A stretch of DNA of 41,245 bases from UHGV virus genome UHGV-0086138. One strand, 5' to 3'. Both the position numbers and the translations under genes were made by a program. The stretch's first letter is position 1. Each line of letters starts with the position of its first letter. Origin of the DNA: a virus. The notes below the pieces were generated by a model that saw only the letters and a list, made by a program, of their open reading frames with translations, searched no databases and was not told where the DNA came from. Of the stretch, positions 3,704 through 33,421 are shown piece by piece.

Positions 3704-4288
3704 TTATTGTTTGTTTTTTTCGTTCTGGTTGATGACAAATTCAATGTAACTTTCGATCTTTGCTTTCTCGGTTTCGGGTAACAATGCGTAGCGCGAGCGA
3801 TCATAGTTGATGGTCGCAGGGTCGTGCGGGTGAATCAGTAATTCATAGCCGTGACGCCCGAATGCGGATGCAACATTCTCCAGGGTGGAAATGGAAACGC
3901 TGACCTCATTGTTTAACAGGCGGCTGATTGTCACCTGGGCGACGCCGGATGCGCGGTGTAGTTTTCCCTGCGTTGAAAGGTCGCGGCTTTCGCTCATCCA
4001 GCGTTCCAGGTTGTGAGCCGCCAGCTGACCTATATCACTCGGGCCGACAGGCTGAAAACCTTCCTGAGAAAGCGAGCGATCGATATCAAGCCAGTTACGG
4101 GGTTTATTGGCGGCAGCTTCAATTTTTCGCGCAACCTGGTCGCCGATAACCTTCTTGCCAAGAGCCCAGCGGTTTACCAGATTTGCCTGAGTTCCAAGTT
4201 TTTCTGCCATCCGCGTCTGAACACCATTGAATTCACGGTCGATCAAGTCGTTGAGATTTTGCCTGCGGACGTCCTGGATACTTTTCAT
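3704..4288 (-). CDS. prophage repressor with two XRE-type helix-turn-helix regions; no LexA-like S24 peptidase domain evident
   Basis: 194 aa; HTH-like segments near residues 25-45 and 110-135; divergent from Cro-like gene with three operator palindromes in between. Confidence 0.7.
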   Translation of the reverse strand: MKSIQDVRRQNLNDLIDREFNGVQTRMAEKLGTQANLVNRWALGKKVIGDQVARKIEAAANKPRNWLDIDRSLSQEGFQPVGPSDIGQLAAHNLERWMSESRDLSTQGKLHRASGVAQVTISRLLNNEVSVSISTLENVASAFGRHGYELLIHPHDPATINYDRSRYALLPETEKAKIESYIEFVINQNEKNKQ

Positions 4289-5039: not shown

Positions 5040-5903
5040 ATGAGCAGACATGCAACAGATTGGGCCTGGGAGACAGATCCAGGTAGCTCATCATTAAAGC
5101 TCATACTGCTCTCGATGGCTGACAGAGCCGATGAATATAACCTCTGCTACCCCAGCATAGAACGCCTCGTTAAAGACACTTGCCTGAATAAAAAAACCGT
5201 GCAGGCCGGGCTTATATCGCTCATGAAAATGGGGCTTATTTCAGATACCGGAGAGAGAAAGGGAGCGACAAAAAGAGTGCGGGTTTTCTCTCTTAATATA
5301 ACCAAAAACGGGAACATTAAAGGCAACCGAGAGGGGGGCAATGAACCCGAAAACGGTAATGTTACCGAAAACGGGAATATACCCAAAAACGGGATGTTGA
5401 ATGATCCCAAAAACGGGATGTTGAATGATCCCAAAAACGGGATGTTGAATGATCCCAAAAACGGGATGTTGAATGATCCCAAAAACGGGATCCAGAACCA
5501 GTCATATAACCAGTCATTTAACCAAGAGAGGGAGAGCAGGACAAAAAACGGGGATTCTGTGCATCATGACCCCGGCGCAAACAACGCCGTGATGAATAAC
5601 TTTGTTCCTCCTGGTGGGCCAGGGCAATTAGGCAAATTTGTCATGCATGAACAATGGCAGCCATCAGATGACTTTCTTCGGAAAAGCTCATTGCAGGGGA
5701 TCTACCTGGACAGTCTGCCAACGGCACAGGAACTTGCAGAGTTCAGAATTTACTGGATGGCTGAGGGTAAGGCATACCATCAGGCACAGTGGGAGCAGAA
5801 GCTGGCAAGGCGGCTGCAGATTAGCAGACAGAAGCAATCAACATTACCTGATAACAACGTTCCGCACTGGAACAGCCCTGAAGCATGGGAGGATTTCTTG
5901 TGA
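5040..5903 (+). CDS. replication initiator (lambda O-like role) with N-terminal HTH and internal iteron array
   Basis: 287 aa; N-terminal HTH-type domain; 4 perfect 24-bp direct repeats inside gene (encode PKNGMLND x4); followed by P-like gene. Confidence 0.75.
   Translation: MSRHATDWAWETDPGSSSLKLILLSMADRADEYNLCYPSIERLVKDTCLNKKTVQAGLISLMKMGLISDTGERKGATKRVRVFSLNITKNGNIKGNREGGNEPENGNVTENGNIPKNGMLNDPKNGMLNDPKNGMLNDPKNGMLNDPKNGIQNQSYNQSFNQERESRTKNGDSVHHDPGANNAVMNNFVPPGGPGQLGKFVMHEQWQPSDDFLRKSSLQGIYLDSLPTAQELAEFRIYWMAEGKAYHQAQWEQKLARRLQISRQKQSTLPDNNVPHWNSPEAWEDFL
5347..5491 (+). repeat. iteron-like direct repeats inside replication initiator gene (4 perfect 24-bp units CCCAAAAACGGGATGTTGAATGAT at 5382-5477, flanked by degenerate copies)
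   Basis: perfect tandem units read directly; analogous to ori iterons inside lambda O. Confidence 0.7.
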
Positions 5904-13145: not shown

Positions 13146-13222
13146 TGGCGTGGCATGCAGGATTCGAACCTGCGACCAACCGCTTAGAAGGCGGTTGCTC
13201 TGTCCAACTGAGCTAATGCCAC
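13146..13222 (-). tRNA. tRNA-Arg (anticodon UCU)
   Basis: Cloverleaf read from reverse complement: 7-bp acceptor stem GTGGCAT/ATGCCAC, D-arm GCTC..GAGC, anticodon stem ACCGC/GCGGT with loop CUUCUAA, T-arm GCAGG-TTCGAAT-CCTGC, 3' CCA encoded. Confidence 0.85.
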
Positions 13223-13543: not shown

Positions 13544-13560
13544 CTTACCTGAAAGGTAAT
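13544..13560. promoter_or_regulatory. operator-like palindrome CTTACCTGAAAGGTAAT upstream of structural operon
   Basis: same motif family, about 90 bp upstream of 13650. Confidence 0.55.
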
Positions 13561-22519: not shown

Positions 22520-25140
22520 TGCCAGTCGTACCAACAGTATCCGGACGTCAGGTTGAGAGTCGTGGAGTTCAGTCAGCAGGCTTGCAGACGTTTTCTCAGC
22601 CAGGTATTGGTGATGCTTTTGTTCGGGCAGGGACAGAGGCAATTGATGTTTTTGGTCAGGCAAAACAGCGTGCCAATATTGCCTTTGTTCAGGAGGCATC
22701 CCTTAAACTCAGTCAGACAGGCAGTGATCTGCTGAATAATCCTGAAACAGGATTGCTTAACCTGAAAGGGAAAAATGCTATTGGAAAAGGCCATGAGTAT
22801 ACGCAGCAGTTTGATGCTCAGGTTGAACAACTGGCTATGTCGCTGCCAGATGAACAGGCTCGTAATGCTTTCATGCAGCAGGCGCAGCAACAGCGTATTC
22901 AGTTCACTACGCAGGCCGGGAGGTACGAAATAGGACAGGTTCGCCAGTATGAGGCGGATATGCAGGATGCGACACTAAAAAACCTATCGATGCAGTTCCG
23001 TAACCCGACAATGGCAAACCAGGCAGGATTGAAGGCATATCATAGCATCATCGCTTACGGCGAAGCCCACGGCCAGAGTCAGGAAGAGATCGAACAGAAC
23101 TGGGTTTCGTGGCGCGAGAATGCCGCGAACGGTGCGGCGGAGGCGTGGTATGTGCCGATGTATCAACAGATGATGGGGCCGAACGGCAAGATTGAGGTAA
23201 CCGATACACCGAGTGAGGCGCAGTTATTCTCTGCAATAATCTGGCAGGAGAGTGGCGGAAATCAGTACGGAAAGGACGGAACACCTCTGGTGTCGCCAAA
23301 AGGCGCTGTTGGCGTAGCGCAGGTGACGGAAGATACTGGCCCCGAAGCTGCCCGCCTTGCTGGTGTGCCGTGGGACCGAGATAAATGGTTGAATGACCCG
23401 CGCTATAATGCCCGCTTGGGGCAAGCTTATTTCGGCGCGCAGATGAAGAAATACGACAATAACCCGGTTCTGGCAGTAGCTGCCTATAACGCTGGCCCAG
23501 GAAAGGTTGACGGCTGGATTAAACAGATTGGCGATCCGCGCACAGGCGAAGTCAGTAACGCCCAGTTTGCCGCAGCTATCCCATACGACGAGACGCGCAA
23601 TTATGTGGCAAAAGTAACTGGCAGTGCTGGAGCTATTCCTGGATCTGCGACGATGGAAAACCTCATCGCACAGCCATTCTGGAACGCCATGAGTCCGGAC
23701 AAAAAGTCGCAGATGATGAGCAAGGTTGCTGGCATGTACGACATGCAGGCTTCAGCCGGTCGCGTTGCGCTACAGAGTCGAATGCAGGACGACCTATCCA
23801 AAATTGAGGCCGGTAAGCAGGTGACGCCTATTTCAGCGCACGAATGGGCCGCCGTTATGCCGCTTCAGGCAGCGCCTGCCGAGCGCCTGCAGATGGAAAA
23901 AACCTTCCAGCAATACCAGCAGGCAATGACGCTACAACCTGTTTATCAGACCATCATGCAGGGCAACGTCCAGCAGGGTACCGCCGCCGTGCAGGCAATG
24001 GCACCGCAGGAAAACGACCCTGACTTTAAATACAAAGCCGAGCTTTATGCATCGGCAAAGGTCAAGCTTGGGCAGGTACTGAAGGCGCGGGAAGCGGATC
24101 CGGGGGTATGGCTGCAACAAAACTCTCCGGTTGTGCAGGCTGCATTCCAGCAGTACCTCAATGACCCTTCATCTGGTGAATACCTAGTTTCCCGCATACA
24201 GTCTGAAAAAGACCGCCTGGGGATAATGAGCAAAAAAGTTTTACCGGAGTCCATGGTTAACGACGTACTGCAGCGTATTGACAACACGCAGGAATCTAGC
24301 GTAAAGGCCATTCAGTCGGTGGCGCAGTCGTTCGGCAAATACTCGGATCAGGTGATGTGGCAGGTGCAAAATAAAGCATTCCCAGCTTTAAAGGTTGTAA
24401 TGTCTACAGAAAACCAACGGGCAGCAGATGCGTTGTGGCAAATACGGAATGTATCTACTTCTGATTTGAGATCTGGTTTGGATAAAAACCAGGCAGACAG
24501 TGCAGACTCATCGTGGACAGATCAATTTAAAGATTTTTCTTCAACTCTTATTCCTCAGAGAAATGGTGCTGAAAACTGGACTATTTATAACGAGCAGGGA
24601 AAACGCTTGACCTACAACTACATGCAGCGCGGAATGTCGGCGTCTGATGCAGCAAAACAGGCGTATCAGGACCTTCTCGGCGAGCAGTACCAGACCAATG
24701 GCACTTGGCGGCTACCTAAGCGTGCAGGGATAGATATTCGTGACGTTAACGATGGTGCCAATGCGTATCTGAAAAACCTGTCAGCAGATCAGATTATGCC
24801 GCTTATTGGTGACCCAAGGCTACCTGATGAGGTCAACCGTGAGCAGAGTATCTCCCGCATTCGTGATAATGCGCAGTGGGTTACCAACAGCGACGAAACA
24901 GGACTTACCCTGATGCTCAACGGGCTGATCGTCAACGGTGCCGACGGCAACCCGATTACGGTGCCGTTCAACGATCTGGCGAAACTGGGAACAACCAACC
25001 GATCAGTATGGAACAGCATTACCAAGTTCATTGATACTCCGGTGAAATATACTCCCGGACAGTCTAAGGAATACAGCGCAGAAAGTCAGCGCGACAACCT
25101 GATTAACATTTTCCAGAACGGCCAGCAATCAGGACGATAA
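22519..25140 (+). CDS. internal virion protein with soluble lytic transglycosylase domain
   Basis: ATG 22519 after GGAGGA; SLT-like motifs (IIWQESGGNQ, AYNAGPG). Confidence 0.8.
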   Translation: MPVVPTVSGRQVESRGVQSAGLQTFSQPGIGDAFVRAGTEAIDVFGQAKQRANIAFVQEASLKLSQTGSDLLNNPETGLLNLKGKNAIGKGHEYTQQFDAQVEQLAMSLPDEQARNAFMQQAQQQRIQFTTQAGRYEIGQVRQYEADMQDATLKNLSMQFRNPTMANQAGLKAYHSIIAYGEAHGQSQEEIEQNWVSWRENAANGAAEAWYVPMYQQMMGPNGKIEVTDTPSEAQLFSAIIWQESGGNQYGKDGTPLVSPKGAVGVAQVTEDTGPEAARLAGVPWDRDKWLNDPRYNARLGQAYFGAQMKKYDNNPVLAVAAYNAGPGKVDGWIKQIGDPRTGEVSNAQFAAAIPYDETRNYVAKVTGSAGAIPGSATMENLIAQPFWNAMSPDKKSQMMSKVAGMYDMQASAGRVALQSRMQDDLSKIEAGKQVTPISAHEWAAVMPLQAAPAERLQMEKTFQQYQQAMTLQPVYQTIMQGNVQQGTAAVQAMAPQENDPDFKYKAELYASAKVKLGQVLKAREADPGVWLQQNSPVVQAAFQQYLNDPSSGEYLVSRIQSEKDRLGIMSKKVLPESMVNDVLQRIDNTQESSVKAIQSVAQSFGKYSDQVMWQVQNKAFPALKVVMSTENQRAADALWQIRNVSTSDLRSGLDKNQADSADSSWTDQFKDFSSTLIPQRNGAENWTIYNEQGKRLTYNYMQRGMSASDAAKQAYQDLLGEQYQTNGTWRLPKRAGIDIRDVNDGANAYLKNLSADQIMPLIGDPRLPDEVNREQSISRIRDNAQWVTNSDETGLTLMLNGLIVNGADGNPITVPFNDLAKLGTTNRSVWNSITKFIDTPVKYTPGQSKEYSAESQRDNLINIFQNGQQSGR

Positions 25141-30352: not shown

Positions 30353-30877
30353 TTACCAAAACTTGTACCACGGGGATTTATCCTTCAATGGACAATCCTT
30401 CCATCGTGTGGCTAACCATTCATATTCTTTAAAATATGTGTTTATGTTTTCTTTTTCTCTAATAGCTTGTATAAGAGGTAGCGCAATCTGATAGTTATTT
30501 ACAACGGAGCTGTAAAATACTTCCTTAATCATGGTCTCATCATAAGTTTTCCGCTTCACGCTCACAGCCATGCGTTCGTAGAAACCTAGACAGTAAATTA
30601 TTTCTCTCTTCTCTATCTTTTCTTCATCCGTAAGATCAGCCTGCCCATTGCTTGGATACATATAAGAGCGGAATGATTTGTTCGACTCGTGAATGCGGCG
30701 CATAGTAGATAGGCCTTTCTTATAATCTACATCAAACCTGCTTTCACCAAGGAATACTGAAGTGTGTACTTTTCTCGCTGTATTTACATTATAAATAATA
30801 GTAGCGATAGCTATGAACAAGCCAAGCGAAACCGCGACTGCACTTACGATTTGAGCCACAGCCATGGCAAATTGCAT
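30353..30877 (-). CDS. membrane-anchored protein of unknown function (AT-rich accessory gene)
   Basis: N-terminal TM helix then about 140-aa soluble domain; start ambiguous between ATG 30877 and GTG 30892. Confidence 0.5.
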   Translation of the reverse strand: MQFAMAVAQIVSAVAVSLGLFIAIATIIYNVNTARKVHTSVFLGESRFDVDYKKGLSTMRRIHESNKSFRSYMYPSNGQADLTDEEKIEKREIIYCLGFYERMAVSVKRKTYDETMIKEVFYSSVVNNYQIALPLIQAIREKENINTYFKEYEWLATRWKDCPLKDKSPWYKFW

Positions 30878-30910
30878 TTCTTCACTTAACACAAACTGTC
30901 TCCAGACATG

Positions 30911-31020: not shown

Positions 31021-31037
31021 ATCACCCGTAAGGTAAT
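31021..31037. promoter_or_regulatory. operator-like palindrome ATCACCCGTAAGGTAAT
   Basis: upstream of minus-strand mini-ORF/leader and membrane-protein gene. Confidence 0.5.
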
Positions 31038-31108: not shown

Positions 31109-31819
31109 TCAGAAGAACCCTGCCTTGTCGTTGATGTATTCCGCGTGCGTCTGGATATCACGCAGGCATTTGCTCACACCGACGATGTAGCAGAACATGG
31201 TGGTCAGCTCCGCCGCCGCGCCCGATACGTCGTGCCCGTCTTCCTGTAACTGGTTCAGCAGATTCATCAGCAGTGAGTTCTCCGTCAGGCCGAGAACACC
31301 AGACGGCGAGTGAATCAGGCTGCGGTAGCCGGGCTTCAGCGGGGCGCTGTAGGTTTTGTTCTCTATCTTCATTGCCTGCATCACTGCTGATGCTGTGGCG
31401 TTTGCAACCTGGTCGGCAACCATCTTTATGCGTTCTTCCTGCGGGAGCGAGTTTTTAATGTAACTTCCGGTGCGGCGGATCTGAGGAAGAACCTCACCTG
31501 TAACCCATTTACGAAAGCGGTAGGGGATAGTGCCTGGTGTCACTGCGTCGCGGCAGCGGAGGATCAGTGTGTAGAGGCCTGACTCGGAGATGATGTTGAT
31601 CTCTTTTACTCGGCTGTCAAAAATTGCACGATGTTCATGCCCTATGTTGAACATAGACCTTTCATCATCATCCAGTTTTTCAAGTGCTTGGGTGACGTTT
31701 TGGATACGCAGCGCACTACAAACGTCTTGGGCTACAAACCATGGTTGGCCATCGATAATGATGGAACGGATAGGGTTAACAGATTCAAATTTGAAGATGG
31801 CAGTTTGAGCATTAGCCAT
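31109..31819 (-). CDS. antirepressor (Bro-N domain plus C-terminal antirepressor domain)
   Basis: Bro-N-like N-terminus (FKFESVNPIRSIIIDGQPWFVAQDV); ATG 31819 with GGAG RBS; C-terminal domain paralogous to 32969..33226. Confidence 0.75.
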   Translation of the reverse strand: MANAQTAIFKFESVNPIRSIIIDGQPWFVAQDVCSALRIQNVTQALEKLDDDERSMFNIGHEHRAIFDSRVKEINIISESGLYTLILRCRDAVTPGTIPYRFRKWVTGEVLPQIRRTGSYIKNSLPQEERIKMVADQVANATASAVMQAMKIENKTYSAPLKPGYRSLIHSPSGVLGLTENSLLMNLLNQLQEDGHDVSGAAAELTTMFCYIVGVSKCLRDIQTHAEYINDKAGFF

Positions 31820-31975
31820 GGTGGTTATCTCCACTTAGTGATTTTAATCACCACCGCAACGCCAATTACTGGTGGTGAACTGGACAAGGTTGGCGTACCG
31901 GCCTAAGTGGTACCGGCGTCCTTTCGGACCCCTGCCCAGCCCACCATAATTCGGATATAGCTGTGCTTAACGCAT

Positions 31976-31997
31976 AAAAAAACCACGTCTGGCGTGG
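31976..31997 (-). terminator. intrinsic terminator inside antirepressor leader (minus strand)
   Basis: hairpin CCACG-CCAGA-CGTGG followed by T7 on minus strand, about 160 bp upstream of ant start. Confidence 0.5.
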
Positions 31998-32087
31998 TAT
32001 GCGCCACTTAGTAACTCGGGACGCCAATCCCGGCACTGGATTTTGCCAGTACCCGATTACTATGGCACAAGAGGAGTGCGATGTAAA

Positions 32088-32104
32088 TTTACCGCAAAGG
32101 TAAT
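32088..32104. promoter_or_regulatory. operator-like palindrome TTTACCGCAAAGGTAAT at antirepressor promoter
   Basis: overlaps -10/+1 of a putative minus-strand promoter (TTGATT...TTATCAT). Confidence 0.55.
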
Positions 32105-32181
32105 GATAAACGCGAAGAAATATTAAAAATCAACCGTATTTGGTTGGTTGCGTTTAACGCTTGATCACCTGAAAGCAAGAT

Positions 32182-32198
32182 ATTACCTTTAAGGTAAT
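32182..32198. promoter_or_regulatory. operator-like palindrome ATTACCTTTAAGGTAAT
   Basis: 20 bp upstream of the 32218 gene RBS. Confidence 0.6.
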
Positions 32199-32217
32199 GT
32201 TATTGTGAGGAAAAGCA

Positions 32218-32946
32218 ATGGAAGTTTTCTGGATAGTTGTTGGTGTGGTTGCGGTGATTATTTATGTTATCAACCAGAACAAGACTAAGATCTCTGATCG
32301 TACGGTCGTTAATCATAACAAAACGATAAAGACCGAAGATGGGGAGATAACGATTAATCGTACACAGGTGATAGAACACACCTCTACTCAGTTTCAAAAA
32401 ACTGGAGGTAATGCGCCTAATATTTCCGCACCTCCTGCTTATGATAGTGCGGTAATCCAGACATATTATAAACAGCAGGAGTTAGCAAAAGAGAGGCAAC
32501 TGATTCAGCCAAAGCCGTTTACAGCTGAGCTTCCACCTGGAGTGTCAACGCGTCCGGCATATCATGGAAGATTCCCTGGTGATGACATATCGTCTCAGTC
32601 ATCTAAAAAAGCACCTCAGGCAGTATCAGAGCCAGCAAGAATACCTTCTGTATCGCCGCCAAAAGAAGAATCAGCTAACAGAGTTTCAAGTGGTAGCAAG
32701 CAGTGCTTGCGATGCAGAATAAACCTACCATATGAAAAATTCAGGAAATCGTCAAAAAATCCAGATGGATTGACTAAGTGGTGTGCAAGGTGTCTCGATG
32801 GCCCAAAGAATACACGCCATATGAAGTGGTGCCCAATTTGTAATGTCCGCAGAAAACGAACCAGCTTTTACCCTAATAATCAAAATGCGGACGGATTAAT
32901 GGCATGGTGCAAAACGTGCTGGGATGAGCACAAAGCGAAACGATAG
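32218..32946 (+). CDS. membrane-anchored protein with duplicated C-terminal CxxC zinc-ribbon-like motifs
   Basis: N-terminal TM helix; two repeats of C-x2-C ... DGL-x-(K/A)WC-x(2)-C; GAGGA RBS. Confidence 0.5.
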   Translation: MEVFWIVVGVVAVIIYVINQNKTKISDRTVVNHNKTIKTEDGEITINRTQVIEHTSTQFQKTGGNAPNISAPPAYDSAVIQTYYKQQELAKERQLIQPKPFTAELPPGVSTRPAYHGRFPGDDISSQSSKKAPQAVSEPARIPSVSPPKEESANRVSSGSKQCLRCRINLPYEKFRKSSKNPDGLTKWCARCLDGPKNTRHMKWCPICNVRRKRTSFYPNNQNADGLMAWCKTCWDEHKAKR

Positions 32947-32968
32947 GCCGCTCTTGCGGCCTTTAAAT

Positions 32969-33226
32969 TTACCGGGTTTGTTTTCGTAATTGTTCGGCAC
33001 AATAGTCGAGATGTGTTTGCAGATCCCGCATAGACATCTGTGACCTGGTGACGTAGTTAATCAGTGCAGTCAGTTCGGCAAGTGGGCCATCGACATTAAA
33101 TCCATCCTTATCGAGATCCCGGAGTAATTTCATCAAGTGCGATCCCTCCACCAGTGATCTGACGCCTCCCGGCGTGTGAATCCTTTCGGTAAATCCGTCT
33201 TCCAGTGGATAGTGATACTGCTGCAT
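32969..33226 (-). CDS. small antirepressor-domain protein (paralog of Ant C-terminal domain), LexA-box controlled
   Basis: ATG 33226 with GGAG RBS; 86 aa aligns with C-terminal part of the 31109..31819 product; near-consensus LexA box lies upstream, which argues against the track start at 33349. Confidence 0.55.
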   Translation of the reverse strand: MQQYHYPLEDGFTERIHTPGGVRSLVEGSHLMKLLRDLDKDGFNVDGPLAELTALINYVTRSQMSMRDLQTHLDYCAEQLRKQTR

Positions 33227-33245
33227 CTTATCTTCTCCATACGAT

Positions 33246-33265
33246 AACTGTATATTTATACAGTA
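33246..33265. promoter_or_regulatory. LexA (SOS) box AACTGTATATTTATACAGTA
   Basis: CTGT-N8-ACAG with AT-rich spacer, 18 of 20 matches to consensus TACTGTATATATATACAGTA; about 20 bp upstream of the 33226 start. Confidence 0.7.
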
Positions 33266-33301
33266 ACAAATAATTTGTTTGCTATCCAGCACGTTTTGCA
33301 A

Positions 33302-33318
33302 ATCACCTGAAAGGTAAT
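33302..33318. promoter_or_regulatory. operator-like palindrome ATCACCTGAAAGGTAAT
   Basis: in divergent region between small antirepressor gene and tailspike gene. Confidence 0.55.
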
Positions 33319-33421
33319 ATCTGTTCGTATTTATGGGTTGTCTATCCATATGTGGTTTTTTAGGTAATAGAATGACCAGATATGCGGCGCAACGGGTGCT
33401 GCGACTATCTGGAGATTTAAC

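What the first reader, a model, noticed from the sequence alone, without database searches (positions are those of the whole stretch)
32218..32946. Membrane protein with duplicated zinc-ribbon-like C-terminal repeats inserted between two antirepressor genes
The 242-aa product has an N-terminal TM helix, a low-complexity linker and two copies of a C-x2-C...DGL-x-(K/A)WC-x2-C motif. It has its own operator palindrome (32182-32198) and is divergent from the Bro-N antirepressor. I cannot assign it to a known family; its location in the immunity-accessory region suggests a role in lysogeny control or exclusion.
Basis: partly seen in the sequence, partly recalled or inferred. Interest (0 to 1): 0.5.

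Follow-up and report, generated by a model that had tools for sequence, protein, structure and literature searches.

The report
Membrane-tethered double zinc-ribbon prophage protein
An optional gene of an epsilon15/phiV10-like E. coli prophage encodes a membrane-anchored protein that holds two basic zinc-ribbon modules in the cytoplasm and appears to be switched by the phage's own repressor; the gene is real and conserved, but its job has never been tested.

Summary
ORF 32218-32946 (+) encodes 242 aa with one N-terminal TM helix, a variable disordered linker and two C-x2-C-x22-C-x2-C zinc ribbons. It is preceded by the perfect palindrome ATTACCTTTAAGGTAAT and followed by a terminator.

New findings:
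- **Host element:** the window is a Uetakevirus (phiV10/epsilon15-like) prophage. The gene is a cassette absent from phiV10.
- **Operator:** the palindrome is one of 14 TTACC-N5-GGTAA sites (0.63 expected) that flank the repressor gene, which is identical to phiV10p40. It overlaps the predicted -10. In Providencia relatives it changes to TTAACC-N5-GGTTAA together with that phage's other sites.
- **Zinc ribbons:** they are Stc1-type modules that usually accompany phage HNH/EndoVII nucleases and helicases. Here there is no catalytic domain, and the domain charge is +14.
- **Family:** about 50 clusters (PHROG 6762), almost always between the ejection-protein and tailspike genes, next to a C4/IsrK-controlled antirepressor.

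Best model: a repressor-gated membrane tether that presents a probable nucleic-acid-binding module at the inner membrane after derepression. The function is untested. This is a new variant of a known kind, of moderate interest.

The parts
32161..32166 (+). Predicted -35 hexamer TTGATC of the gene's own promoter
   Evidence: Read from the sequence. The same TTGAnC lies 15-16 nt before the operator in diverged homologues: TTGACC in Enterobacter/Citrobacter-type loci, TTGAAC in Providencia, TTGATC in L077.
32184..32189 (+). Predicted -10 hexamer TACCTT, 17 nt after the -35 and embedded in the left operator half-site
   Evidence: The same TTGACA-N16-TTACCTTT layout occurs at window 13545 (-). Lineages that lack the palindrome keep TTGTCA-18-TACCTA. 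The generic scan missed it because only 3 of 6 bases match the consensus. The assignment is inferred, not shown.
32182..32198 (.). 17-bp perfect palindrome ATTACCTTTAAGGTAAT, a repressor operator covering about -14 to +2 of the promoter
   Evidence: It is one of 14 sites in the window (0.63 expected). phiV10 has 14 sites of the same motif, mostly at equivalent positions. The site co-varies with the resident phage's operator type.
32207..32211 (+). Shine-Dalgarno sequence GAGGA, 6 nt before the ATG
   Evidence: Read from the sequence.
32218..32946 (+). CDS of 242 aa: membrane-tethered tandem zinc-ribbon protein (PHROG 6762)
   Evidence: pN/pS against TL-2011b is 0.2 overall, 0.07 in the zinc-ribbon part and 0.8 in the linker (counts are small).
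32224..32277 (+). Residues 3-20: single N-terminal TM helix with predicted N-out/C-in topology (E2 before the helix; K22, K24 and R28 after it)
   Evidence: Topology is inferred from the positive-inside rule and from the need for Cys4-Zn sites to sit in the cytoplasm.
32281..32385 (+). Residues 22-56: conserved juxtamembrane segment (SDRTV..TIKTEDGEI.I.RTQV), predicted beta-hairpin
   Evidence: Near-invariant columns in A1. AF2 places strands at 27-39 and 42-54 but with low confidence. Its partner is unknown.
32386..32688 (+). Residues 57-157: variable, P/S/A/Q-rich, disordered linker
32695..32805 (+). Residues 160-196: zinc ribbon 1 (C163, C166, C189, C192)
   Evidence: It aligns to PacI residues 3-41 (E 0.11).
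32821..32943 (+). Residues 202-242: zinc ribbon 2 (C205, C208, C231, C234) plus a C-terminal helix
   Evidence: It matches the zinc-ribbon parts of PHROGs annotated as endonuclease VII and Lar-like.
32945..32971 (+). Intrinsic-terminator-like hairpin GGCCGC-TCTT-GCGGCC followed by TTTAAATTT, overlapping the stop codon
   Evidence: (dG -18.6 kcal/mol, z -2.2). The same hairpin closes the alternative cargo in EC.W1-9.
32130..32157 (.). Left junction of the cassette: a degenerate second copy of the p24-like gene's 3' end (compare 32965-32992)
   Evidence: (repeats D10/D11).
32089..32103 (.). Second operator, TTACCGCAAAGGTAA, belonging to the divergent IsrK/C4-ant promoter; 94 bp centre-to-centre from the gene's own operator
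   Evidence: It is conserved in phiV10, EC.W1-9 and Enterobacter relatives that lack the cassette at this place.
31868..32065 (-). Leader of the antirepressor operon: c4 a1/b1 targets (32013-32065), IsrK (31976-32052, with terminator 31982-31998) and C4 antisense RNA (31868-31951)
   Evidence: Rfam scores are C4 66 bits (GA 45), IsrK 63.5 bits (GA 50) and c4-a1b1 43.4 bits (GA 46.7). Candidate promoter TTTACA-17-CATAGT lies at 32087-32059.
31109..31834 (-). Bro-N antirepressor (left neighbour)
   Evidence: PF02498 at 1e-19 and phrog_130 'anti-repressor Ant' at 2e-57.
32969..33226 (-). p24-like gene (85 aa; the listed 126-aa ORF probably starts at this internal ATG), a stand-alone homologue of the Ant C-terminal domain (right neighbour); operator at 33303-33317 upstream
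   Evidence: phrog_450 at 9e-47; 43% identity to Ant residues 160-233; phiV10p24 is 258 nt; operator site.
3704..4288 (-). Prophage repressor (two-HTH, 194 aa) whose operators flank it (3570, 3632, 4344, 4392)
   Evidence: 100% identical to phiV10p40. PF01381 matches at 1e-9. PMC9782041 reports the same sequence in ZX5 and that its overexpression blocked the lytic cycle.

Best explanation
The gene is a self-contained accessory cassette (promoter/operator, gene, terminator) of an epsilon15/phiV10-like prophage.

Product: a bitopic inner-membrane protein with its N-terminus out and the bulk of the protein in the cytoplasm. A roughly 100-residue flexible linker carries a rigid, strongly basic tandem Cys4 zinc-ribbon domain. 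That module normally accompanies phage HNH/EndoVII nucleases and helicases. Here it has no catalytic partner, so it can bind but cannot cut.

Regulation: the -10 of the promoter lies inside an operator for the prophage's main repressor. The protein is therefore predicted to be absent in the stable lysogen. It would be made together with the neighbouring C4/IsrK-controlled antirepressor when repression is lifted, that is, on induction or early after infection.

Most likely action: it holds nucleic acid, most plausibly DNA, at the cytoplasmic face of the inner membrane during the early lytic phase. I favour trapping of incoming foreign or superinfecting DNA once repressor immunity is off. Anchoring of the phage's own genome, as phi29 p16.7 does, is the alternative.

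Status of each step:
- Shown: the anatomy, the conservation, the insertion, the operator regulon and its co-variation, and the domain kinship.
- Inferred: the topology, repression by the operator, nucleic-acid binding and the biological role.
For: Anatomy.

Cassette nature:
- The gene is absent from phiV10, ZX5 and other relatives whose flanks match. It is present in TL-2011b and in 129 of 5426 complete E. coli genomes.
- EC.W1-9 carries different cargo at the same junctions.
- A terminator follows the stop codon.

Repressor control:
- There are 14 TTACC-N5-GGTAA sites against 0.63 expected, including pairs on both sides of the repressor gene.
- The repressor is identical to phiV10p40, which PMC9782041 reports as blocking the lytic cycle in ZX5.
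- phiV10 itself has 14 sites of the same motif, mostly at equivalent positions.
- The operator overlaps the conserved -35/17/-10 promoter.
- In Providencia relatives the upstream palindrome is TTAACC-N5-GGTTAA, and that variant recurs 3 times in 14 kb (expected 0.03-0.06). TTACC-type loci carry 2-6 sites (the ORF's own plus 1-5 more). Loci with no palindrome before the gene essentially lack the motif, with at most one 1-mismatch match.

Domain kinship:
- The ribbons match the zinc-ribbon part of PHROGs annotated as endonuclease VII, HNH and primase.
- 1737 relatives were found. Of 70 sampled, 40 hit Stc1 (best 3e-18), 8 Endonuclease_7, 8 HNH, and others are helicases.
- The domain has net charge +14, with conserved K/R.

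Selection: pN/pS is 0.07 in the ribbons and 0 in the TM segment, against 0.8 in the linker.

Context: 12 of 14 representative loci place the gene between the ejection-protein and tailspike genes, usually after p24 and ant. P22 keeps sieA and immI in the equivalent interval (PMC10883804).

Precedent for a membrane DNA anchor: phi29 p16.7 (PMC4974454).
Against: - No experiment of any kind exists for this family.
- The -10 (TACCTT) is weak by consensus, and the generic promoter scan did not report it.
- An operator does not prove silence in the lysogen. phiV10's lysogenic-conversion gene oac also has a one-mismatch site inside its promoter.
- Roughly 40% of diverged lineages keep the promoter but have no palindrome, so repressor control is not universal.
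- The name-giving Stc1 domain is, from my own recollection, a protein-protein adaptor. In PacI and Hpy99I the Cys4 sites are largely structural. Nucleic-acid binding by the isolated module is therefore not established.
- A basic domain next to the membrane could instead bind anionic lipids.
- There are no PADLOC or NCBIfam matches.
Confidence: 0.4

Rival explanations
1. Classical lysogen-expressed superinfection-exclusion moron. The protein would be made in the lysogen and block DNA delivery by related podoviruses at the inner membrane, as P22 SieA or HK97 gp15 do. It might do so by engaging the cytoplasmic end of the ejection-protein conduit.
For: - It is an inner-membrane anchor encoded on the strand opposite to the late genes, with its own promoter and terminator.
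- It occupies the ejection-protein to tailspike interval that holds sieA in P22 (PMC10883804).
- It is mobile between different prophage types.
- Several lineages have no operator in the promoter.
- The oac precedent shows that an operator-bearing promoter may still be active in lysogens.
Against: - The operator covers the predicted -10 and start site, which is a repressive position.
- The operator co-varies with the resident repressor's specificity, so control by the repressor appears to be selected.
- There is no similarity to SieA (three TM helices, FxRYPxEAxxFNK motif) or to any PADLOC model.
- The bulk of the protein is cytoplasmic, not periplasmic.
Confidence: 0.2
2. Protein-sequestering tether acting in lysogeny control or anti-defence. 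The zinc ribbons would bind a protein rather than nucleic acid and pull it to the membrane when the prophage is derepressed. Candidate targets are the phage repressor, Ant or p24, or a host nuclease or defence sensor. The effect would be to reinforce the switch to lytic growth or to neutralise a host defence.
For: - The gene is conserved beside the ant/p24 module in several enterobacterial genera.
- It shares repressor control with ant and p24.
- The juxtamembrane segment is conserved but has no recognisable nucleic-acid-binding features.
- From my own recollection, Stc1's tandem zinc finger is a protein adaptor; 24 of 30 family members give sub-threshold Stc1 hits.
- The overall layout (TM, long flexible linker, globular cytoplasmic domain) is that of the E. 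coli tether ZipA, again from my own knowledge.
Against: - No partner could be identified.
- The gene also occurs without ant or p24 nearby.
- The domain is extremely basic (+14), and its relatives are overwhelmingly fused to DNA enzymes.
Confidence: 0.2
3. Decaying remnant of a zinc-ribbon HNH/EndoVII homing-nuclease gene with no current function.
For: The ribbons are the accessory modules of such nucleases and the catalytic core is missing.
Against: - The full-length architecture, including the TM helix and juxtamembrane segment, is conserved from E. coli to Providencia, Serratia and Pectobacterium at 40-63% identity, with all eight Cys retained in full-length members.
- Purifying selection acts on the TM segment and the ribbons.
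- The ORF is intact in 129 E. coli genomes.
- The promoter is conserved.
Confidence: 0.03

Closest known systems
Stc1-type tandem Cys4 zinc finger (Pfam PF12898) and the zinc-ribbon modules attached to phage HNH / endonuclease VII / beta-beta-alpha-Me nucleases (solved examples: PacI, Hpy99I)
   Different: This protein has no nuclease or helicase domain and no HNH/EndoVII Pfam hit. It scores below the Pfam Stc1 gathering threshold (21 against 24.8 bits). It is fused instead to an N-terminal membrane anchor and a long disordered linker.
Bacillus phage phi29 p16.7 (membrane protein that recruits replicating phage DNA to the membrane)
   Same: Both are integral membrane proteins that bring nucleic acid or replication proteins to the membrane (PMC4974454). 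From my own recollection rather than that paper, p16.7 is also a small early-expressed protein with an N-terminal TM anchor and a cytoplasmic C-terminal DNA-binding domain.
   Different: There is no sequence or fold relationship. From my own knowledge, p16.7 uses a coiled coil and a helical DNA-binding domain, not zinc ribbons. It serves protein-primed replication in a Gram-positive lytic phage. DNA binding has not been shown for the present protein.
P22 SieA (and other inner-membrane injection blockers such as HK97 gp15 and T4 Imm)
   Same: Both are inner-membrane proteins encoded in the interval between the ejection-protein and tailspike genes of a temperate podovirus, next to the antirepressor (immI) module (PMC10883804).
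   Different: SieA has three TM helices, no zinc ribbon and is expressed from the prophage. This protein has one TM helix, a large cytoplasmic domain, an operator over its -10 and no sequence similarity.
E. coli ZipA (bitopic N-out/C-in membrane tether with a P/Q-rich linker)
   Same: The overall design matches: N-terminal anchor, charged juxtamembrane part, long flexible proline-rich linker and globular cytoplasmic binding domain. The comparison rests on my own knowledge of ZipA and for this protein.
   Different: The resemblance is in architecture only. The C-terminal domains are unrelated, and ZipA is a host cell-division protein.
Phage P1/P7 immI (C1-controlled c4-icd-ant) and Gifsy-1 isrK-anrP
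   Same: The neighbouring antirepressor operon carries C4 and IsrK RNAs and a repressor operator at its promoter. As with P1 C1 (my own knowledge), one repressor controls many dispersed operators.
   Different: This describes the neighbourhood and its regulation, not the protein. Neither system is known to include a membrane zinc-ribbon gene.

Membership tests
PHROG 6762 (unknown function) | Full-length match to the family profile | tested here: met
   E 1.1e-150, residues 1-242 on profile positions 1-242.
Pfam Stc1 domain (PF12898) | Score at or above the curated gathering threshold (24.8 bits) | tested here: not met
   21 bits, E 5e-4. 24 of 30 family members hit, with best E 1.2e-4; the window protein's 21 bits is below threshold.
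Pfam Stc1 domain (PF12898) | Eight cysteines forming two C-x2-C...C-x2-C zinc sites in tandem | tested here: met
   C163/166/189/192 and C205/208/231/234 are conserved in all full-length homologues. The domain is modelled as a compact tandem unit at pLDDT about 89. Zinc itself was not measured.
Pfam Stc1 domain (PF12898) | Linked to bona fide members through intermediate sequences | tested here: met
   Profile search with A1 found 1737 relatives. 40 of 70 sampled match Stc1, best 3.4e-18.
HNH / endonuclease VII / beta-beta-alpha-Me nucleases | Catalytic beta-beta-alpha-Me core (His/Asn metal site; Pfam HNH, HNH_5 or Endonuclease_7 match) | tested here: not met
   No such Pfam hit at E <= 1. 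PHROG, PDB and BFVD matches cover only the zinc-ribbon parts. There is no DH..N motif between the Cys pairs (read from the sequence).
P22 SieA-type injection blockers | Polytopic inner-membrane protein (three TM helices) with the cytoplasmic FxRYPxEAxxFNK motif, expressed from the prophage | tested here: not met
   A single hydrophobic segment, no such motif (sequence), and an operator over the -10. SieA features are taken from PMC10883804.
Known anti-phage defence systems (PADLOC-DB 2.0) | Match to any defence-protein model | tested here: not met
   0 families at E <= 1.
Moron-type accessory cassette | Own promoter and terminator, transcribed against the flanking genes, present or absent between otherwise collinear phages | tested here: met
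   EC.W1-9 carries alternative cargo in the same slot.
Regulon of the phiV10-type repressor | Operator TTACC-N5-GGTAA overlapping the promoter, changing with the resident phage's operator type | tested here: met
   Actual binding and repression cannot be tested with these tools.
Membrane DNA anchors (phi29 p16.7-like, by function) | N-terminal TM anchor with the C-terminus in the cytoplasm | tested here: inconclusive
   The TM helix is predicted. Orientation is inferred only from charge distribution and the Cys4 sites.
Membrane DNA anchors (phi29 p16.7-like, by function) | Nucleic-acid binding by the cytoplasmic domain | not testable with these tools
   Only indirect support: net charge +14 and relatives fused to nucleases and helicases.

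The most novel reading that the evidence does not exclude
A repressor-gated hand-over of protection. While the prophage repressor is active it provides immunity and keeps this gene off. When the repressor is inactivated, by induction or by Ant, the cell loses immunity and at the same moment makes a membrane-tethered, nuclease-less zinc-ribbon DNA trap. The trap captures or blocks DNA entering at the cytoplasmic face of the inner membrane. That would be a new class of lytic-phase superinfection exclusion in temperate podoviruses, built from a domesticated homing-nuclease DNA-binding module.
Probability: 0.15. Interest if true: 0.65.

Novelty: new variant of a known kind. Interest (0 to 1): 0.38.

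Why it matters
The protein defines a small, uncharacterised family. About 50 clusters at 50% identity have the full architecture, found in enterobacterial genera such as Escherichia, Enterobacter, Serratia and Providencia. It sits in roughly 2.4% of complete E. coli genomes, including prophages of pathogenic strains such as TL-2011b from an O103:H25 outbreak isolate.

It combines a known nuclease-accessory zinc ribbon with a membrane tether, a combination that has not been described.

Its promoter gives an unusually clean comparative signal: the operator in front of the gene changes together with the resident phage's operator type. This makes it a convenient handle for studying how accessory cassettes are wired into a prophage's repressor regulon.

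If the protein acts on DNA at the membrane, whether by exclusion or by anchoring, it would add a new mechanism to podovirus biology. If it does not, it remains an ordinary hypothetical accessory gene.

Tried and rejected
- Pfam, NCBIfam and PADLOC gave no significant family for the whole protein.
- The PDB sequence search gave only a marginal PacI hit at E 0.11.
- Foldseek of the full-length model against PDB gave nothing below E 0.04. Re-modelling the C-terminal domain alone was needed to obtain usable hits.
- The afdb50 fold library was not available.
- The scan of representative genomes returned only 2 loci. The viral-contig scan was far more useful, with 79 loci.
- Literature searches found nothing on a prophage TM plus zinc-ribbon exclusion protein, on bacterial Stc1 domains, or on this gene in TL-2011b or phiV10.
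- The epsilon15 genome paper, which may already describe the operator motif, is not held. I therefore cannot say whether the regulon has been published.
- A degenerate HNH nuclease was rejected: there are no catalytic residues, and the spacing between Cys pairs (22 residues) is too short for a beta-beta-alpha-Me core.
- A Sec signal peptide was rejected: the N-terminus is acidic (M-E), there is no cleavage motif, and the positive charges follow the helix.
- A structural or virion role was rejected: the gene is on the opposite strand, has its own promoter and terminator, and is dispensable in close relatives.
- The alternative cargo genes of EC.W1-9 were scanned in case they revealed a theme for the slot. 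They match nothing in Pfam or PADLOC.
- My first placement of the ant-operon -35 in my notes (32137-32132) was wrong. By recount, the upstream candidate is TTGATT at 32133-32128 with -10 TTTATC at 32110-32105. The candidate that fits the IsrK 5' end is TTTACA-17-CATAGT at 32087-32059.
Full report
**1. The observation**

ORF 32218-32946 (+) exists and encodes 242 aa. A GAGGA Shine-Dalgarno sequence lies 6 nt upstream.

- The N-terminal 21 residues are the only hydrophobic stretch. The Kyte-Doolittle 19-residue maximum is 2.33, and no window outside residues 1-22 exceeds 1.6. AlphaFold2 models them as a confident helix.
- Residues 57-157 are 55% P/S/A/Q/T/G, are predicted disordered, and vary in length among homologues.
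- The C-terminal 85 residues contain two units with identical spacing, C-x2-C-x22-C-x2-C. The units share 13 of 37 positions without gaps.
- All eight cysteines and the D-G-L..W-C signature are conserved in all full-length homologues, from E. coli to Providencia, Serratia and Pectobacterium.
- The palindrome at 32182-32198 is perfect: ATTACCTT-T-AAGGTAAT.

**2. What the window is**

The region is 95% identical to Escherichia phage TL-2011b. Its flanks match phiV10, ZX5, phiv142-3 and other Uetakevirus (epsilon15-like) phages.

In those other phages the match breaks into two pieces. The ORF is missing, and the flanks join within about 40 nt of each other. The gene is therefore an insertion. It lies between the operator of the antirepressor operon and the 3' end of the p24-like gene.

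- The cassette is bounded on the left by a degenerate second copy of the p24 3' end (32130-32157 against 32965-32992).
- On the right is a GC-rich hairpin plus T-tract that overlaps the stop codon.
- Phage EC.W1-9 carries two unrelated unknown genes between the same junctions, closed by the same hairpin. This is a cargo slot.
- TL-2011b has the same intact 242-aa ORF, although its record marks it only as a misc_feature.
- The cassette is found in 129 of 5426 complete E. coli genomes. It is always chromosomal and always annotated 'hypothetical protein'.

**3. The palindrome is the phage-wide operator**

TTACC-N5-GGTAA, allowing one mismatch, occurs 14 times in the window against 0.63 expected. 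None of 100 shuffles reached 14.

- Two sites lie on each side of ORF 3704-4288 (-). This is a two-HTH protein that is 100% identical to the phiV10 repressor p40.
- PMC9782041 reports the same protein in ZX5, where its overexpression shut down the lytic cycle.
- phiV10 has 14 sites of the motif, mostly at equivalent positions.
- Other sites in the window precede the p24-like gene (33303), the DUF4760 unit (31022), the antirepressor operon (32089), a tRNA-Arg unit (13545) and early genes (6723, 6785).

For the ORF, a -35 (TTGATC, 32161-32166) is followed after 17 nt by TACCTT (32184-32189), which lies inside the operator's left half. The operator would therefore cover roughly -14 to +2.

The generic promoter scan did not report this promoter because the -10 matches only 3 of 6 consensus bases. 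Comparative data support it:
- Homologues 44-63% identical keep TTGAnC, a 15-16 nt gap and then the operator.
- Lineages without a palindrome still keep TTGTCA-18-TACCTA.

**4. The operator co-varies with the resident phage**

- In Providencia prophages the palindrome in front of the gene is ATTAACC-N5-GGTTAAT. That variant occurs three times in 14 kb, against 0.03-0.06 expected.
- Loci with a TTACC-type site in front of the gene carry 2-6 sites in all, that is, 1-5 besides the ORF's own.
- Loci without a palindrome in front of the gene essentially lack the motif, with at most one 1-mismatch match.

This is the strongest evidence that repressor control of this gene is maintained by selection. 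It remains an inference that the bound repressor represses.

One caveat stands. phiV10's conversion gene oac, which must act in lysogens, also has a one-mismatch site inside its promoter.

**5. The protein family**

- PHROG 6762 (unknown function) matches end to end.
- The word-index search found 33 clusters, all in the order Enterobacterales.
- The exhaustive profile search found about 50 full-length clusters. It also found 1737 proteins that share only the zinc-ribbon part, often as arrays of 3-10 units.
- Of 70 such relatives, 40 match Pfam Stc1 (best 3e-18), 17 DUF6510, 8 Endonuclease_7 and 8 HNH. Others carry SF1/SF2 helicase domains.
- The window protein itself scores 21 bits on Stc1, below the 24.8-bit threshold. 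24 of 30 family members give sub-threshold hits, with best E 1.2e-4.
- It matches 44 predicted viral structures at E <= 1e-3, many of them HNH, EndoVII or beta-beta-alpha-Me nucleases.
- No catalytic domain or motif is present.
- The domain has net charge +14, with 20 K/R in 85 residues, many of them conserved.
- Against TL-2011b, substitutions indicate purifying selection on the TM segment and the ribbons and relaxed constraint on the linker. The counts are small.

**6. Genomic context across the family**

In 12 of 14 representative loci the gene lies between the last ejection-protein gene and the tailspike gene of epsilon15-like prophages. It is on the opposite strand to both.

The usual order is tailspike <- | -> p24 -> ant ... 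-> this gene | <- ejection proteins. In E. coli the gene is inverted and sits between ant and p24.

It also occurs:
- in a Serratia podovirus prophage, between the ejection-protein genes and the terminase gene;
- next to a tape-measure gene in another prophage;
- in a small Buttiauxella island with a CI-like repressor and resolvases.

The ejection-protein to tailspike interval is where P22 keeps sieA and immI (PMC10883804).

**7. The neighbours**

- The left neighbour is a Bro-N antirepressor.
- Its leader carries a C4 antisense RNA (66 bits), IsrK (63.5 bits) and, just under threshold, the a1/b1 target element. This is the P1/P7 immI and Gifsy-1 isrK-anrP type of control (PMC4825925 by title and abstract).
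- The right neighbour is the conserved p24/epsilon15-gp19 gene. It corresponds only to the C-terminal domain of Ant. 'Two antirepressor genes' therefore overstates what is there.

**8. Mechanism**

*Shown:* a conserved, selected, optional cassette. It encodes a single-pass membrane protein with a flexible linker and a compact basic tandem Cys4 module of the nuclease/helicase-accessory type. Its promoter carries the resident repressor's operator.

*Inferred:* N-out/C-in topology, from an acidic N-terminus, K22/K24/R28 after the helix, and Cys4 sites that need the cytoplasm. Also inferred are repression in the lysogen, expression on derepression, and nucleic-acid binding.

*Best model:* a repressor-gated tether that holds DNA at the inner membrane early in lytic development. 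This could be a trap for incoming DNA once immunity is lost, or an anchor for the phage genome in the manner of phi29 p16.7 (PMC4974454).

*Rivals:*
- a lysogen-expressed SieA-like exclusion protein;
- a protein-sequestering tether acting on the lysis-lysogeny switch or on a host defence;
- a decaying nuclease remnant, which conservation and selection make very unlikely.

**9. Comparison and novelty**

The zinc ribbons are a known module, but the protein falls below Pfam's Stc1 threshold and lacks any nuclease core. By function, the closest analogues share no sequence or fold with it:
- phi29 p16.7, a membrane DNA anchor;
- P22 SieA, which shares the genomic interval and the inner-membrane location;
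- ZipA, which shares the tether design.

The architecture is undescribed as far as the held literature shows. I rate it a new variant of a known kind, of moderate interest. Most of the value lies in the operator co-variation and in the possibility of a lytic-phase, membrane-based DNA trap.

Noticed in passing
window 31868-32065 (-): The Bro-N antirepressor gene is preceded by a C4 antisense RNA (31868-31951, 66 bits), an IsrK sRNA with its terminator (31976-32052, 63.5 bits) and a just-sub-threshold c4 a1/b1 target element (32013-32065). This is a P1/P7 immI-like and Gifsy-1 isrK-anrP-like control region in a Uetakevirus prophage. phiV10 annotates part of it only as 'similar to hypothetical protein SF0880'.
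   Followed up: partly
window 3570, 3632, 4344, 4392, 4729, 6723, 6785, 10400, 10418, 13545, 31022, 32089, 32183, 33303: There is a dispersed regulon of 14 TTACC-N5-GGTAA palindromes (0.63 expected). phiV10 has 14 sites of the same motif, mostly at equivalent positions. One repressor appears to control the accessory and early units all around the genome, reminiscent of P1 C1. Providencia relatives use TTAACC-N5-GGTTAA instead. I could not check whether this has been published, because the epsilon15 genome paper is not held.
   Followed up: partly
window 32093-32969; L003:3194-4266; L002:4179-4221: This is a cargo slot between the ant-operon operator and the p24-like gene. It is empty in phiV10, holds the zinc-ribbon gene here and in TL-2011b, and holds two unrelated unknown genes (139 and 168 aa) in EC.W1-9. 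The slot is bounded by a duplicated p24 3' end and a shared GGCCGC..GCGGCC hairpin. The EC.W1-9 cargo is also preceded by a one-mismatch operator (TTACCCTAGAGGTAG).
   Followed up: partly
window 30353-30892 (-), with site 31022-31036: A DUF4760 protein (PF15956, 1.6e-30; phrog_2284) with an N-terminal hydrophobic segment lies in the same accessory region. It sits behind a small upstream ORF and a one-mismatch operator. It has no PADLOC hit, and its function is unknown.
   Followed up: no
window 13146-13222 (-) and 13545-13559: A phage-borne tRNA-Arg (anticodon TCT) lies downstream of a TTGACA-N16-TTACCTTTCAGGTAA promoter/operator. This is the same layout as the zinc-ribbon gene's promoter.
   Followed up: no
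window 5382-5491 (inside ORF 5040-5903): A perfect 24-bp tandem repeat of 4.6 copies encodes PKNGMLND repeats in the replication-initiator-like protein. It is probably an iteron-type origin embedded in the gene.
   Followed up: no
window 32969-33349 (-): The 126-aa ORF listed mechanically is probably an 85-aa gene starting at ATG 33226, as in phiV10p24. Operator 33303-33317 lies inside the upstream extension.
   Followed up: partly
L013 (phiV10) 24692-24706: The promoter region of phiV10's O-acetyltransferase conversion gene oac contains TTGATC-N9-TTACCCGATAGGTGA, a one-mismatch operator. Either oac is partly repressor-controlled or such sites do not always repress. This is a caveat for reading regulation from the operators.
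   Followed up: no
window 33422-36496 (+): The 1024-aa tailspike has an epsilon15/phiV10-type N-terminal adaptor and a C-terminal Peptidase_S74 intramolecular-chaperone domain (residues 872-933, 9.6e-9). The receptor-binding middle part differs from TL-2011b and phiV10.
   Followed up: no
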